DNA from: a virus
Taxonomy: Duplodnaviria; Heunggongvirae; Uroviricota; Caudoviricetes
Virus record (IMG/VR): IMGVR_UViG_3300042894_004034
Span: 64,001-98,590 of that record
DNA: 34,590 nt
Reading direction: 5' to 3' (one strand)
Positions 28,202 through 34,590 of the stretch are shown here, piece by piece. The stretch's first letter is position 1, and each line of letters opens with the position of its first letter. The notes under the pieces were generated by a model. The model had not been told where the DNA came from and did no database searches. It worked only from the letters and a program-made list of their open reading frames with translations. A program made the position numbers and the translations under genes.

Positions 28202-28212
28202 AGAAATTTTTA

Positions 28213-31334: not shown

Positions 31335-31358
31335 ACACACAACACGGTTCCGGACGGA

Positions 31359-31364
31359 TAAATA
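31359..31364 (+). promoter_or_regulatory. Putative late promoter (TAAATA), 6 nt before ATG
   Basis: TAAATA-TCATAT-ATG, no SD. Confidence 0.55.
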
Positions 31365-31370
31365 TCATAT

Positions 31371-31811
31371 ATGTTTATCTTGCAATATCTCCCGGACAGC
31401 GTAATCTTGTGGTTCTGCAATGGCCTGCTGATAGCGGGCATTGTGTTGACCGTTGTGGCCTTTTTCATCAAAACACTGCCCTTGGTCAATCAGTATCGAA
31501 TACCTGCACAAGTCCTGGGTATCGCACTGCTGGTTCTGGGTGTGTATTTCCGTGGTGGACTTGCTGTGGAACAGACCTGGCGTGAGCGAGTGGCCAAACT
31601 TGAAGCACAGATTGTGGTGGCCCAAGCTGCCTCCAAGGACGCCAATGTCAAAATAGAAACCAGAGTCATAAAGAAAACTGAATATATCACACGTCGTGGT
31701 CAAGACATTGTGCAGTTTGTGGATCGCGAAGTTGTCAAATACGACAACACCTGTGTGATACCTGCACCATTTGTTCAGGCACACAATCGTGCAGCGGAGC
31801 CAGTCAAATGA
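31371..31811 (+). CDS. Membrane-anchored coiled-coil protein, Rz/i-spanin-like
   Basis: Two N-terminal TM segments, predicted coiled coil, C-terminal Cys (TCVIP). Confidence 0.55.
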   Translation: MFILQYLPDSVILWFCNGLLIAGIVLTVVAFFIKTLPLVNQYRIPAQVLGIALLVLGVYFRGGLAVEQTWRERVAKLEAQIVVAQAASKDANVKIETRVIKKTEYITRRGQDIVQFVDREVVKYDNTCVIPAPFVQAHNRAAEPVK

Positions 31812-32251
31812 GAGCCACAGAATTTGTCACTGAAAAGTGGAGCCCAAAATACAAAAAGAGCATCAATTGTGCTCACCCAAAAGGCTTCTCACAAAAGGCC
31901 CATTGTGCAGGCAAACGCAAACACAACGAATCTGTTGATGACACTGTGATGGAAATGGTGTGCGAAGACTGTGGCATGTGTGAGGCACATGCTGACTCAG
32001 ACGTGAATGAAAATCTTCGAGACTGGTTCAAGGACAAATGGGTACGCTTTGGACCAGACGGCAAAATACGCGGTGACTGTGCTCGAGGTTCCAAATCAGA
32101 AGGCAAGCCCAAGTGTTTGCCACGAGCCAAGGCCAATGCACTGGGCAAGAAAGGTCGTGCATCAGCAGCGGCCAGAAAACGACGACAAGATCCTGACGCC
32201 AATCGTTCAGGAGCAGCAATAAATGTCAGCACAAAAGGAAAGAAAAAATGA
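31808..32251 (+). CDS. Basic Cys-containing modular protein, putative internal head protein
   Basis: MRATEFVTE tag; two cationic Cys-pair modules separated by an acidic CEDCGMC linker. Confidence 0.7.
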   Translation: MRATEFVTEKWSPKYKKSINCAHPKGFSQKAHCAGKRKHNESVDDTVMEMVCEDCGMCEAHADSDVNENLRDWFKDKWVRFGPDGKIRGDCARGSKSEGKPKCLPRAKANALGKKGRASAAARKRRQDPDANRSGAAINVSTKGKKK

Positions 32252-34224
32252 ACATAAATGATATCATTACAGAATCACAACAAAAATGTCCGCACTGTGG
32301 TGGACCCTTGATGGAATATTCAGATCTAATAGAAAAGAAAGATGCCTGCTACTACAAGGTCAAGGCTTCAGCAAAAGTATGGCCCAGTGCCTATGCGTCT
32401 GGTCGTTTGGTACAGTGTCGCAAAAAAGGTGCCAGCAACTATGGCAACAAGTCAGAAAGCATGGCGGAAGGCTCCAAAGACTCTGCACCCAAGATGGGAT
32501 CAAAAGAAAAGAAACTAGCCCAGGGTGCTCTCAAAGGTGCTAGAGATATGTCTGCCGTACTTGGGTTGGTCCGAGGCAAAGACGGTGTGGCCAAACCACC
32601 AGAGACTAAAAAGCAAAGCGTGGCGGAAGGTGAAGAAGAAGATGCTAAGTTCACTCCTCGACTACAAATCAGAAGTCGAATAGGGACTGCGTTAAACCAA
32701 TATTTAGATCCTGAAAAAGTGGCAGGTGCCTATACTGACATTCAATACTATAAGCACGACGGCAAAGTTTATGTTGAAGTATTATTCCACTATACCGATG
32801 GACAAAAGATCGGTCCCAGACAAAGAAAGCAATTTTTAGTCAATAAAGATTTTACACTAACTCCTATCAAGAAGCAAGGCATGGCGGAAGGCTCAAAACA
32901 CAATCAGCAAGATTTAGACGATGTTGCTGATTGGATGAATACTACTCCTGATAAATTGTCAGTTGAAGTCAAGCAAGAATCTATTGAAAAGTTCATCAAA
33001 CAGATTCGTGAAATGTATGGGACATATGATGAATTTCCCGAAGATGAAGACCGCACTAATCGTATTTTGAAGTTGTTAAAGCGTGGAGCAAAGCCATTGC
33101 CCATCTATGTAGAAGCAGGTGATCCACATTTGTTTGTTATGGAAGGCCGTCATAGAATGGTGGCGTTTTGGTTAGCTGAGATGAAAACTATTCCAGTCGC
33201 CTATGTAAGCATCAATAGTCAGCAAGGTGTAGCGGAAGACAAAGGTATGACACAATACAACGCATTCAAGCGTGAGTGGCGTGCCAAACACGGTAGTGAT
33301 GCCAAAGTACCTGGCTACGACAGCAAAGAATACAACGCATATTGGTGGCGTCAAGGCGATAAACAGCAAGACAATAAAAAGCAAGGTGTGGCAGAAGGCT
33401 CGGAAGAATTCAACACGGTAAAAACTTCGCCTTACAAAGCAACGCAACTGCTTGGTGGCAAATATCCAGTAGCATTTGCAATTGAAGTGTTGTGTCCAGA
33501 TCAATCTGTTGTTAGCATGATCCAAAACAAAATTGGCAGAGCATATCAGGTAGAAAGAGATAATTCTATAGAAGGAAATGGAATAGGTATTGAGATTGTA
33601 TCTCGGCGTTTTGAAGGTGGTCAAACTGCTCAAGCCGCATATGATCAACTACTTGACTTTATTGAACAAAATGGCGGCCAGTTCAACAGTTCAACACAAG
33701 TTACAATTTATAAACAAAAGCCAGGCATGGCAGAACAGCAACTGGATGAAAAATGCTGGGACGGCTATCAGCAACAGGGCATGAAAAACAAAAGTGGCCG
33801 CCAGGTGCCCAACTGTGTGCCTGTCACAGAAGAACTCACAACAGATCAGCAGTTTGACATGATCGAAGACATGGTAGAACAACTGGCCGAATCACATGGT
33901 GTGGATTCAGATGTGATCTGGGAAGACTTTGAGTCAGTGGATGATCACGAACTGTACGAAACAGCAGCCTGGCGCAGAAAAGAAGGCAAGAGCGCCCGGG
34001 GCGGGCTCAACGCCAAGGGTGTGGCCAGTTATCGCAGAGAGAATCCCGGATCAAAACTGCAAACAGCAGTCACAACCAAGCCGTCAAAACTCAAGCCTGG
34101 CTCCAAAGCAGCCAAACGCCGCAAATCATTCTGTGCCAGAATGGGCGGCGTAAAAGGCCCAATGAAAAAGCCCAATGGTAAACCTACCCGCAAGGCTCTG
34201 GCCCTGCGTAAATGGAACTGCTAA
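32248..34224 (+). CDS. Modular polyprotein (658 aa) with six [GS][VM]AE linkers; ParB/Srx-like and amidoligase-like modules; putative virion cargo
   Basis: MNINDIITE tag; repeated linkers; EGRHR motif; FAIE/RDNSI/GIEIVS/NSST motifs. Confidence 0.75.
   Translation: MNINDIITESQQKCPHCGGPLMEYSDLIEKKDACYYKVKASAKVWPSAYASGRLVQCRKKGASNYGNKSESMAEGSKDSAPKMGSKEKKLAQGALKGARDMSAVLGLVRGKDGVAKPPETKKQSVAEGEEEDAKFTPRLQIRSRIGTALNQYLDPEKVAGAYTDIQYYKHDGKVYVEVLFHYTDGQKIGPRQRKQFLVNKDFTLTPIKKQGMAEGSKHNQQDLDDVADWMNTTPDKLSVEVKQESIEKFIKQIREMYGTYDEFPEDEDRTNRILKLLKRGAKPLPIYVEAGDPHLFVMEGRHRMVAFWLAEMKTIPVAYVSINSQQGVAEDKGMTQYNAFKREWRAKHGSDAKVPGYDSKEYNAYWWRQGDKQQDNKKQGVAEGSEEFNTVKTSPYKATQLLGGKYPVAFAIEVLCPDQSVVSMIQNKIGRAYQVERDNSIEGNGIGIEIVSRRFEGGQTAQAAYDQLLDFIEQNGGQFNSSTQVTIYKQKPGMAEQQLDEKCWDGYQQQGMKNKSGRQVPNCVPVTEELTTDQQFDMIEDMVEQLAESHGVDSDVIWEDFESVDDHELYETAAWRRKEGKSARGGLNAKGVASYRRENPGSKLQTAVTTKPSKLKPGSKAAKRRKSFCARMGGVKGPMKKPNGKPTRKALALRKWNC
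32452..33738 (+). repeat. Six in-frame direct repeats, consensus AAGCAAGGYRTGGCGGAAGGCTC
   Basis: Core V/M codon at 32461, 32620, 32881, 33229, 33388, 33727. Confidence 0.85.
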
Positions 34225-34590
34225 ATGAGAGCAAGTGAATTTGTTTCAGAAGTCAAGGGTCACGATTTTATGGCAGGACACTGTCATGTGATGGCCATGG
34301 CATTGAAGCAGTTGCACCCTGATTGGCAAATACGTGCCCATGTAGGCTATGACGATGATGCTGCTGATGACACTGAGTATCGTGTGGATCATGTGTACAC
34401 AGTGGCGCCAGATGGCACGGCATATGACTGCCGTGGTAGATTCGACAATGAACAACAGTTGGTGGGACCAGACACAACAGGTGGTGTTGACACACAGTAT
34501 GTGAACTTTGGGCCCGAAGAGATCAAGCAGGCGATGCTGCGTGGTGAATTGAAACGGTTCACTAAACAAGACTTGGCCAATGCCATGCAG
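34225..34590 (+). CDS. Putative papain/transglutaminase-fold protein (3'-truncated by window)
   Basis: Not in ORF track; MRASEFVSE tag; GHC20HVMAMAL, DH56VY, YD68CRG. Confidence 0.65.
   Translation, partial: MRASEFVSEVKGHDFMAGHCHVMAMALKQLHPDWQIRAHVGYDDDAADDTEYRVDHVYTVAPDGTAYDCRGRFDNEQQLVGPDTTGGVDTQYVNFGPEEIKQAMLRGELKRFTKQDLANAMQ

What the first reader, a model, noticed from the sequence alone, without database searches (positions are those of the whole stretch)
32248..34224. Cassette-array polyprotein: unrelated modules joined by an in-frame DNA repeat that encodes a putative protease site
Seen: six linkers SMAEG, SVAEG, GMAEG, GVAED, GVAEG, GMAEQ, conserved at the DNA level (consensus AAGCAAGGYRTGGCGGAAGGCTC; cores at 32461, 32620, 32881, 33229, 33388, 33727). 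They delimit five unrelated modules of 53, 87, 116, 53 and 113 codons. The larger modules look AT-richer than the flanking N- and C-terminal parts of the ORF. Known: Glu-specific prohead proteases process internal head proteins. Inference: a dual-use repeat serving both as a recombination site for inserting or deleting domains in frame and as a cleavage site that releases each domain in the capsid. This would be an integron-like array operating inside one ORF, delivering a variable payload of effectors with the DNA. This is the best candidate for an undescribed system in the window.
Basis: partly seen in the sequence, partly recalled or inferred. Interest (0 to 1): 0.87.

Follow-up and report, generated by a model that had tools for sequence, protein, structure and literature searches.

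The report
Shuffled cargo polyprotein of jumbo phage
One 658-residue gene of an uncultured giant T4-related phage strings small unrelated protein modules together with a repeated 18-base joint; related phages gain, lose and swap modules at that joint, and it looks like a cutting site of the head protease, so the gene probably supplies a changeable set of small proteins packed with the DNA, though no cutting or packaging has been measured.

Summary
ORF 32248-34224 (658 aa, C-terminal DUF6321) has six in-frame [SG][MV]AE[GDQ] joints bounding modules of 53, 87, 116, 53 and 113 codons; about 0.007 are expected by chance.

Shown:
- The joint is an 18-nt DNA element (CAA GGT RTG GCG GAA GGC), conserved at silent sites. 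GCG, the rarest Ala codon (7%), fills 64% of joints.
- It occurs 10 times in the 262-kb contig (0.45 expected), always in frame, in four ORFs.
- Homologues carry different modules. Nearly identical pairs differ by one joint-to-joint cassette, and nucleotide divergence jumps at the joint in two of three pairs.
- The large modules are AT-rich.

Inferred (about 0.6): the protein enters the prohead through a T4-like leader (MNINDIITE; T4 has MKTYQEFIAE) and a T4-type protease cuts it after Glu.
- Free-standing homologues of module 3 carry such a leader, ending in Glu at the distance where the polyprotein has its joint.
- A complete relative (DNA polymerase 84% identical) encodes a Peptidase_S77 protease. 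This contig lacks its head genes.

No integrase was found, so it is not integron-like in mechanism. This scan's earlier notes describe the same architecture in other genomes; I found no paper on it.

The parts
32248..34224 (+). Polyprotein ORF, 658 aa (P0001), member of the DUF6321 family
   Evidence: a 99%-identical partial copy comes from another sample (P0002)
32248..32274 (+). Nine-residue leader MNINDIITE, resembling the T4 capsid targeting sequence and ending hydrophobic-x-Glu
   Evidence: the T4 CTS MKTYQEFIAE is given in PMC8442874
32275..32469 (+). Conserved basic N module: a Cys-x2-Cys ribbon plus the DACYYKV...WPSAYASG...CRKKG motif
   Evidence: in 46 homologues it is followed by 32 different modules
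32455..32472 (+). Joint 1 (E-S-M-A-E|G)
32470..32628 (+). Module 1: 53 aa, basic (pI 10), predicted disordered
32614..32631 (+). Joint 2 (Q-S-V-A-E|G)
   Evidence: deletion endpoint in P0006
32629..32889 (+). Module 2: 87 aa, a helix plus a beta-sheet fold, GC3 32%
32875..32892 (+). Joint 3 (Q-G-M-A-E|G), an exact match to the 23-nt consensus
32890..33237 (+). Module 3: 116 aa with a ParB_N-like fold (EGRHR motif); it also exists as free-standing ~118-aa phage genes that carry a CTS-like leader
33223..33240 (+). Joint 4 (Q-G-V-A-E|D; GTA codon at P3)
   Evidence: alignments with P0003, P0006, P0007 and P0009 restart at q325-328
33238..33396 (+). Module 4: 53 aa, basic, confidently modelled as a helical hairpin
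33382..33399 (+). Joint 5 (Q-G-V-A-E|G)
   Evidence: breakpoint in P0008 and P0013
33397..33735 (+). Module 5: 113 aa, acidic alpha/beta module, GC3 27%; no free-standing homologue found
33721..33738 (+). Joint 6 (P-G-M-A-E|Q)
   Evidence: the commonest breakpoint (q493-494) in homologues
33736..33837 (+). CW-x-GY...VPNCV basic Cys module. It is itself mobile: it follows the N module directly in many homologues, and follows a CTS-like leader in the upstream gene of relative G003
33985..34215 (+). DUF6321 (PF19846) basic C-terminal module, preceded by an acidic helix and L-Y-E|T
   Evidence: (E 4e-21, 75.9 bits against a cut-off of 28.5)
31808..32251 (+). Upstream overlapping gene, 147 aa: leader MRATEFVTE plus two basic Cys modules. 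The same modules are fused to this family's modules in cyanomyophages
34225..34590 (+). Start of the next gene (769 aa in the full contig): leader MRASEFVSE, two further joints and a basic C-terminal module

Best explanation
P0001 is a cassette-built cargo polyprotein of a T4-related jumbo phage. Shown: it consists of a short leader, a conserved basic N module, five unrelated cargo modules and two conserved basic C-terminal modules. These are joined by copies of one 18-nt in-frame DNA element that encodes Q-G-[V/M]-A-E-[G/D]. Related phages carry different modules between the same end modules. Gains, losses and swaps of single modules have their endpoints inside the joint. So the joint acts as a short-homology crossover point that keeps every exchange in frame. 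Inferred: the leader works like the T4 capsid targeting sequence and takes the protein into the prohead. There the T4-type (Peptidase_S77, gp21-like) prohead protease cuts after the Glu of the leader and of each joint. That would release about eight products of 5-18 kDa, mostly basic, one of them ParB_N-like. These would stay in the head with the DNA and probably enter the host with it. The peptide requirement (hydrophobic-x-Glu) and the DNA identity of the joint would therefore serve two different purposes.
For: Architecture and shuffling (shown):
- Six joints sit in one frame.
- BLAST alignment ends of 120 homologues cluster at the joints. Some homologues carry the N module internally or the modules in another order.
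- 340 segments fall into 107 families, 67 of them singletons. The N module has 32 different right neighbours and the C module 40 different left neighbours.
- Pairs with 95-100% identical flanks differ by exactly one joint-to-joint unit: P0083/P0104 49 aa, P0025/P0032 180 aa, P0059/P0065 62 aa.
- At DNA level the inserts are flanked by direct copies of the joint. Divergence jumps at the joint from 0.6% to 5.8% (P0083/P0104) and from 0.7% to 8.7% (P0059/P0065).

DNA-level constraint (shown):
- GCG is 64% of Ala codons at P2, against 7% in the background.
- The P3 codon is GTG or ATG in 66 of 89 joints, and never an Ile codon.
- Third-position information is 0.7-1.8 bits inside the joint and about 0.1 bit outside.

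Cleavage and packaging (inferred):
- T4 gp21 cuts after Glu in I/LxE motifs (PMC12991175).
- The T4 CTS is MKTYQEFIAE and is removed by that cut (PMC8442874; PMC9026906).
- Five to eight genes of this contig, depending on the pattern used, begin with a leader of the type M-R-x-x-E-F-[LVI]-x-E. Both neighbours of P0001 are among them.
- 44% of 77 free-standing homologues of module 3 begin with such a leader, against 1.6% of all ORFs of the contig.
- The leader's Glu lies a median of 10 residues before the D[VA]xxW motif. The Glu of joint 3 in P0001 lies exactly 10 residues before it.
- In relative G003 the CW-x-GY module directly follows a leader (MRYKEILE) in a separate gene.
- All six joints lie in coil with pLDDT below 50, between folded modules.
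- G003 is complete at 364 kb and its DNA polymerase is 84% identical. It encodes a Peptidase_S77 protease beside a gp23-like capsid protein, a scaffold and a portal. Their N-termini carry LxE sites.
- All four linked records at least 80% complete by CheckV's estimate in which head genes could be found have the protease.
- In cyanomyophages the same basic modules form one gene between gp15 and gp16/gp17, joined by other acidic linkers that also end hydrophobic-x-Glu.
Against: - No proteomic, expression or biochemical datum exists for any member. I found no paper on DUF6321, and no cultured phage carries the joint-type protein.
- The contig itself shows no prohead protease, capsid or portal gene. 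I attribute this to incompleteness (CheckV estimate 75%), but that is an assumption.
- P3 of the joint is Val or Met, whereas T4 prefers Ile or Leu. The absence of Ile codons shows that the DNA motif, not only the peptide, dictates the sequence.
- The gene lies among tailoring and lysis-like genes, not in a head module.
- The DNA-level conservation alone could explain why the peptide is conserved, without any cleavage.
- The synonymous-site statistics treat joints as independent and are not corrected for shared descent.
Confidence: 0.6

Rival explanations
1. The protein is an uncleaved multidomain 'polyvalent' protein. The joint is only a recombination joint or flexible spacer, and its peptide is a by-product of the conserved DNA. 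The protein acts, or is packaged, as one chain.
For: Silent sites of the joint are constrained, and P3 is restricted to RTG codons rather than to hydrophobic residues in general. Recombination at the joint is directly visible. Some polyvalent proteins, such as the phage N4 virion RNA polymerase, are packaged unprocessed (PMC5512222).
Against: This reading does not explain why free-standing versions of the same module replace the joint with a T4-CTS-like leader ending in Glu in the same register. It also does not explain why marine relatives join the same modules with different linkers that still end hydrophobic-x-Glu. First and second codon positions of Ala-Glu-Gly are invariant, while only the first base of P3 varies.
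Confidence: 0.2
2. The joints are cut, but by another protease. Candidates are the zincin-like (HEMTH) domain of the neighbouring 1345-aa polyvalent-type protein, one of the phage's own Clp or Lon proteases, or a host enzyme. The cut might happen in the cytoplasm or after injection rather than in the prohead.
For: The contig encodes a 1345-aa protein with an HExxH motif. Metallopeptidase domains have been proposed to process polyvalent proteins (PMC5512222).
Against: Glu at P1 with a hydrophobic P3 is the signature of the gp21 family. The leaders mimic the T4 CTS. Clp and Lon degrade processively rather than cutting at defined sites (established knowledge). The HExxH observation is by eye only and was not tested.
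Confidence: 0.1
3. The ATG or GTG at P3 of each joint is an internal translation start, so the modules are also made as separate proteins without proteolysis.
For: 66 of 89 joints have ATG or GTG at P3, preceded by a purine-rich AAGCAAGG.
Against: The AAGG ends 1 nt before the RTG, whereas Shine-Dalgarno-like motifs in this genome peak 6-8 nt upstream of starts. One of the six joints here has GTA. None of 127 joint-like DNA motifs in the loci and the genome lies at the start of an ORF.
Confidence: 0.04

Closest known systems
Phage T4 internal proteins IPI, IPII, IPIII (and Alt) with the capsid targeting sequence, processed by prohead protease gp21
   Same: A short N-terminal leader ends hydrophobic-x-Glu (T4: MKTYQEFIAE; here MNINDIITE, MRATEFVTE and MRASEFVSE). 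The products are small and mostly basic. The cargo is non-conserved and rapidly changing. A gp21-family (Peptidase_S77) protease is present in the lineage.
   Different: T4 internal proteins are single proteins cut once. Here up to eight modules are strung in one ORF and joined by a repeated 18-nt element that is conserved at silent sites and serves as the crossover point for module exchange. Packaging and cleavage are not demonstrated here.
Polyvalent proteins of phages and conjugative elements (Iyer et al. 2017, PMC5512222)
   Same: Several unrelated domains, including ParB-like ones, are combined in one phage polypeptide. They are predicted to travel with the DNA and to be proteolytically released. 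Architectures are highly mosaic.
   Different: Classic polyvalent proteins are large, built from enzymatic effector domains, and predicted to be processed by their own metallopeptidase. They are not described as having a uniform linker. Here the modules are 50-120 aa, the ends are conserved basic Cys modules, and every junction is the same DNA and peptide element, which matches the head protease's site.
Demarcation motifs of polymorphic toxins (VENN in CdiA; PxxxxDPxGL in Rhs). This comparison is from my own knowledge and was not checked here.
   Same: A short conserved peptide encoded by conserved DNA separates a constant part from a variable, exchangeable part. In Rhs the motif is also a proteolytic cleavage site. 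This is the same dual logic of recombination joint plus cut site.
   Different: Those systems have one junction per protein and swap only the C-terminal toxin. They are bacterial secretion systems, and their cleavage is autocatalytic. Here several junctions occur per protein, the cassettes are internal, the carrier is a phage, and the cleavage would be carried out in trans by the head protease.
Conserved recombination motifs in T-even tail-fibre genes (His boxes in gp37, glycine-rich motifs in gp38). This comparison is from my own knowledge and was not checked here.
   Same: Short conserved in-frame motifs inside a T4-type phage ORF act as mini-homologies at which segments are swapped between phages.
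   Different: Those motifs exchange homologous variable segments of a single structural protein. They do not exchange unrelated domains and have no proposed protease function.
Integron gene cassettes
   Same: An array of exchangeable units is bounded by a repeated site.
   Different: Integrons need an integrase and attC hairpins, and their cassettes are whole genes. No tyrosine recombinase is present in the contig. The cassettes here are in-frame protein segments, and the junctions look like short-homology crossovers.

Membership tests
DUF6321 (PF19846) family | Match to the Pfam model above the gathering score | tested here: met
   Residues 580-656, E 4e-21, 75.9 bits against a cut-off of 28.5; confirmed on the genome
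T4-type CTS / internal-protein system | N-terminal leader of about 10 residues ending hydrophobic-x-Glu | tested here: met
   P0001 begins MNINDIITE. Both neighbours and several other genes of the contig begin M-R-x-x-E-F-[LVI]-x-E (5 by the strict pattern, 8 by the looser scan). This is sequence resemblance only.
T4-type CTS / internal-protein system | gp21-family (Peptidase_S77) prohead protease encoded by the same phage | tested here: inconclusive
   Absent from this 75%-complete contig, which also lacks capsid and portal genes. Present in the complete relative G003 (DNA polymerase 84% identical) and in G002, G004 and G020.
T4-type CTS / internal-protein system | [quoted passage not shown] | not testable with these tools
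   No proteomic data exist and no member is cultured.
Polyvalent proteins (Iyer et al. 2017) | Two or more unrelated domains in one phage-encoded polypeptide, with mosaic architectures across relatives | tested here: met
   Seven segments from different families; 107 segment families in 120 homologues
Polyvalent proteins (Iyer et al. 2017) | Hallmark effector domains (ParB-like, metallopeptidase, methylase and others) | tested here: inconclusive
   Module 3 resembles ParB_N only by predicted structure (TM 0.55-0.66). There is no Pfam match and no PDB sequence match. No peptidase domain lies in this ORF.
Integron | Tyrosine-recombinase integrase and cassettes that are separate genes with attC sites | tested here: not met
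   No PF00589 match in the contig, while the same search matched all 14 control genomes. All 127 joint-like motifs are internal to ORFs.
ParB_N (PF02195), module 3 only | Match to the Pfam model | tested here: not met
   No Pfam hit at E <= 0.1; only fold-level resemblance in the Atlas search

The most novel reading that the evidence does not exclude
The 18-nt joint is a maintained dual-use element. Its DNA identity is kept, by selection or by constant gene conversion, because it lets co-infecting T4-type jumbo phages exchange single protein cassettes in frame. Its peptide is the head-protease site that frees each cassette inside the capsid. Together with the CTS-like leader this would be a dedicated system for building and rapidly re-assorting a payload of small proteins injected with the DNA. 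It would be a phage counterpart of polymorphic-toxin tip swapping, with many slots per protein.
Probability: 0.45. Interest if true: 0.85.

Novelty: new variant of a known kind. Interest (0 to 1): 0.72.

Why it matters
T4's internal proteins show that phages can load proteins into the head and inject them, some as anti-restriction weapons. Those are single proteins in one model phage.

This family has more than 6,500 detectable members in public metagenomes. It suggests a general and evolvable version of that system: one leader, one protease site and one short DNA joint let many unrelated small proteins be loaded from a single gene and exchanged between phages without breaking the reading frame.

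If cleavage and injection are confirmed, three things follow:
- It would point to a large, unexplored pool of first-minute host-takeover or anti-defence proteins.
- It would give a clear natural example of selection acting on the same 18 bases at both the DNA and the peptide level.
- It would give phage engineers a ready-made multi-cargo packaging design.

The predictions can be tested directly by virion proteomics and by a simple protease assay.

Tried and rejected
- Own contig, head genes: searches for Peptidase_S77, Gp23 and Portal_T4, and a search with the relative's protease sequence, found nothing. The head module is missing, so this is uninformative rather than negative.
- Megablast of 14.6 kb of the window against cultured phages found no match.
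- Sequence searches of modules 2, 3 and 5 against PDB chains gave nothing below E 0.3.
- No free-standing homologue of module 5 was found. The Atlas gave only weak alpha/beta fold resemblances for it.
- Literature: 'DUF6321' gave 0 papers. None of the papers holding 'capsid targeting sequence' since 2021 has a title or abstract about a cassette polyprotein; I did not read their full texts.
- My first single-linkage clustering of segments collapsed into one cluster, because some junctions lack the motif. I replaced it with bidirectional-coverage clustering.
- Internal translation starts were rejected as the main reading: the Shine-Dalgarno spacing is wrong, one joint has GTA, and no joint lies at an ORF start.
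- An integron mechanism was rejected: no integrase was found.
- Only 2 exact copies of the joint pattern occur in the complete relative G003, so the density of joints differs between close relatives.
- A T4 late promoter TATAAATA is not present upstream of the operon (1 copy in the window, at 28211). Only an ATAAATA lies just before 31371.
Full report
**1. The observation**

The ORF at 32248-34224 on the plus strand is intact and encodes 658 residues. The six motifs SMAEG, SVAEG, GMAEG, GVAED, GVAEG and GMAEQ lie in frame at the stated positions. A six-frame scan finds [MV]AE[GDQ] nowhere else in the window except once in a non-coding minus-strand frame. From residue frequencies I expect about 0.007 copies in one ORF of this length (my arithmetic).

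They fall into different sequence families. The three large modules have GC 39-40% and GC3 27-35%. The C-terminal part has 52% and 54%, and the window averages 46%. So the AT-richness claim is also correct.

**2. What the gene and the genome are**

Pfam recognises only DUF6321 at residues 580-656. PHROGs gives families of unknown function with very different lengths.

The window lies in a 261.7-kb viral contig that CheckV estimates at about 75% complete. The contig carries T4-type core genes:
- a gp44-like clamp loader, and a DNA polymerase;
- gp55-like late sigma factor, a gp46-like nuclease, gp6-like baseplate wedge and gp5-like hub.

It has no capsid, portal or head-protease gene. The head module is therefore not on the contig.

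The closest cultured relatives by DNA polymerase are Sinorhizobium phage Phosso (49%), Agrobacterium phage Atu_ph07 (46%) and the Rak2-like phages (about 42%). A complete 364-kb metagenomic relative with terminal repeats (G003) has a polymerase 84% identical.

**3. The joint is a family-wide element and a DNA element**

More than 6,500 database proteins match P0001. They are 361-916 residues long and mostly share only the ends. Nearly all of the best 120 carry Q-G-[VM]-A-E-[GD] motifs at varying positions.

In the contig the core TGGC[GA]GAAGG occurs 10 times on the coding strand against 0.45 expected. It is always in the same frame, in four ORFs: P0001, the next gene (769 aa), a 540-aa nucleotidyltransferase/ParB-like protein and a 1167-aa protein.

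Across 87 non-redundant joints from the contig and 80 related loci, the consensus is CAA GGT RTG GCG GAA GGC.
- Third codon positions carry 0.7-1.6 bits inside the joint and about 0.1 bit in the flanking codons.
- GCG is the rarest Ala codon of the genome (7%) but fills 64% of P2 positions.
- P3 is GTG or ATG in 66 of 89 joints and never an Ile codon.
- Four-fold sites in orthologous conserved peptide motifs of the same proteins mostly carry less information (0.04-0.65 bit, with two sites in one motif near 1 bit).

So the DNA, not only the peptide, is conserved. These counts are not corrected for shared descent of the joints.

**4. Modules are exchanged at the joints**

BLAST alignments of P0001 with 120 homologues end or restart at residues 72-78, 125-127, 325-328, 378-381 and 493-494, which are the joints.
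- P0006 equals P0001 minus everything between joints 2 and 4.
- P0007 has a different module in that place.
- The CW-x-GY module after joint 6 lies directly after the N module in many homologues.
- A few proteins carry the N module internally or the C module in the middle.

With bidirectional-coverage clustering, 340 segments form 107 families, 67 of them singletons. The N module has 32 different right neighbours and the C module 40 different left neighbours.

Recent events are visible in three pairs:

| Pair | Flank identity (protein) | Difference |
|---|---|---|
| P0083 / P0104 | 98-100% | 49 residues |
| P0025 / P0032 | 95-97% | 180 residues |
| P0059 / P0065 | 96-99% | 62 residues |

Each difference is exactly one joint-to-joint unit. 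At DNA level each insert is flanked by direct copies of the joint, and the short allele has a hybrid joint. In two pairs nucleotide divergence jumps at the joint: from 0.6% to 5.8% in P0083/P0104 and from 0.7% to 8.7% in P0059/P0065. That is the signature of a crossover at that spot. The shared homology is only 8-18 nt.

No tyrosine recombinase is present in the contig, although the same search matched all 14 control genomes. None of 127 joint-like motifs lies at an ORF start. The mechanism is therefore short-homology recombination inside an ORF, not integron-type site-specific recombination.

**5. Why I think the joint is also a protease site (inference)**

T4 gp21 cuts after Glu in I/LxE motifs (PMC12991175). 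Its relatives in phiKZ and SPN3US cut at S/A-x-E and A-x-E (PMC9026906 and PMC5694885). The T4 internal proteins are addressed to the prohead by the leader MKTYQEFIAE, which is removed by that cut (PMC8442874; PMC9026906).

Leaders in this contig:
- P0001 begins MNINDIITE, and its two neighbours begin MRATEFVTE and MRASEFVSE.
- Five to eight genes, depending on the pattern used, begin with the same kind of leader.

The most telling result comes from module 3. It exists as 77 free-standing genes of about 115-125 residues, up to 88% identical.
- 44% of them begin with such a leader (MRIRELTES, MKSHEFIIE, MRVVEIITE and the like), against 1.6% of all ORFs of the contig.
- The leader's Glu lies a median of 10 residues before the conserved D[VA]xxW motif. 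That is exactly the distance of the Glu of joint 3 in P0001.

So the joint and the leader are interchangeable in front of the same domain. A second case: in G003 the CW-x-GY module follows the leader MRYKEILE in a separate gene, whereas here it follows joint 6.

Further support:
- G003 encodes a Peptidase_S77 protease next to a gp23-like capsid protein, a scaffold and a portal. Their N-termini carry LxE sites: YLRE in the protease, and LLE, ILE and LKE in the capsid propeptide region.
- The related viral contigs are fragments of roughly 350-kb phages. The four records at least 80% complete by CheckV's estimate in which head genes could be found all have the protease.
- The AlphaFold model (pTM 0.28) shows folded beads, with all six joints in coil of pLDDT below 50.
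- In marine cyanomyophages the same basic Cys modules are fused in another order in a gene between gp15 and gp16/gp17. Their linkers differ but again end hydrophobic-x-Glu (VVE, VNE, LME).

Across lineages, then, the Glu-ending peptide is what stays, while the DNA of the joint is lineage-specific.

**6. What the products would be**

Cuts at the leader and the six joints would give a 1-kDa leader and seven products of 5-18 kDa. Five of the seven have pI 8.9-10. Further hydrophobic-x-Glu sites inside the last segment could separate the CW-x-GY module from DUF6321.
- Module 3 has a ParB_N-like predicted fold (TM 0.55-0.66 to ParB_N clusters, 0.92 to a cluster of 118-residue viral proteins). Pfam does not recognise it.
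- Module 5 is an acidic alpha/beta module without relatives.

Basic small proteins recall the T4 internal proteins. ParB-like modules recall the polyvalent proteins of Iyer et al. (PMC5512222). What the products do is not known.

**7. Rivals**

- An uncleaved multidomain protein whose joint is only a recombination site. This is the main alternative (about 0.2). It explains the silent-site conservation but not the leader/joint equivalence.
- Cleavage by another protease, for example the HExxH-containing 1345-residue neighbour (about 0.1).
- Internal starts at the RTG codon (about 0.04). This is unlikely because the AAGG lies 1 nt from the codon, whereas Shine-Dalgarno motifs in this genome peak at 6-8 nt.

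**8. Novelty**

The components are known: the T4 leader and protease, polyvalent proteins, and short conserved motifs as recombination points in T-even tail-fibre genes and polymorphic toxins. The last two comparisons come from my own knowledge.

The combination is what I did not find in the searched literature: many unrelated cassettes in one ORF, one silent-site-conserved joint that is both the crossover point and a candidate head-protease site, and a capsid-type leader.

Earlier AI notes of this scan describe the same architecture in other genomes; a word search returned 33 notes from at least 30 genomes. They agree with this reading but are not independent evidence. I class it as a new variant of a known kind. 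The shuffling is shown. The packaging and cutting are inferred.

Noticed in passing
34225-34590 (continues beyond the window; 769 aa in the contig): The next gene has the leader MRASEFVSE, two joints, a stretch that looks by eye like GNAT motif A (YRGRGLARALYG), and a basic C-terminal module. In relative G003 that same C-terminal module ends a different, 998-aa protein.
   Followed up: partly
31808-32251: A 147-aa protein with the leader MRATEFVTE and two basic Cys modules (KYKKSINC..PKGFSQ and KWV..PKC). The same modules are fused to the DUF6321-family modules in P-SSM2 gene 123 and occur in front of free-standing module-3 homologues.
   Followed up: partly
own contig, reverse-complement coordinates 124582-128619 (outside the window): A 1345-aa protein starts MNINELNSF, has an HEMTH (HExxH) zincin-like motif and a C-terminal ParB-like DGRHRMH motif. 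It looks like a classic polyvalent protein. This was seen by eye only.
   Followed up: no
own contig, reverse-complement coordinates 121958-123580 and 132423-135926: Two more joint-bearing ORFs. One is a 540-aa HxGH nucleotidyltransferase joined by D-M-A-E|G to a ParB-like module. The other is a 1167-aa protein with four joints.
   Followed up: partly
own contig, reverse-complement coordinates 118000-120297: A 765-aa protein is a full-length match to PHROG 4871, 'ATP-dependent protease' (E 5e-232). It comes in addition to the Clp genes noted earlier for this genome.
   Followed up: no
31355-31373: An ATAAATA, resembling the T4 late-promoter core, lies about 5 nt before the ATG of the spanin-like gene at 31371. 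That gene heads the tightly overlapping gene run 31371-31808-32248-34225.
   Followed up: no
L002 (Synechococcus phage ACG-2014f) and L003 (Prochlorococcus phage P-SSM2): In cyanomyophages the homologous gene sits in the structural cluster between gp15 and the terminase genes. It varies from 272 to 615 aa through inserted low-complexity basic stretches.
   Followed up: partly
L097 12155-15631 (relative G003, minus strand): The 1158-aa protein next to the portal gene of G003 also contains a V-M-A-E-G-G motif and several [LM]-A-E sites. It may be another processed head or tail protein.
   Followed up: no
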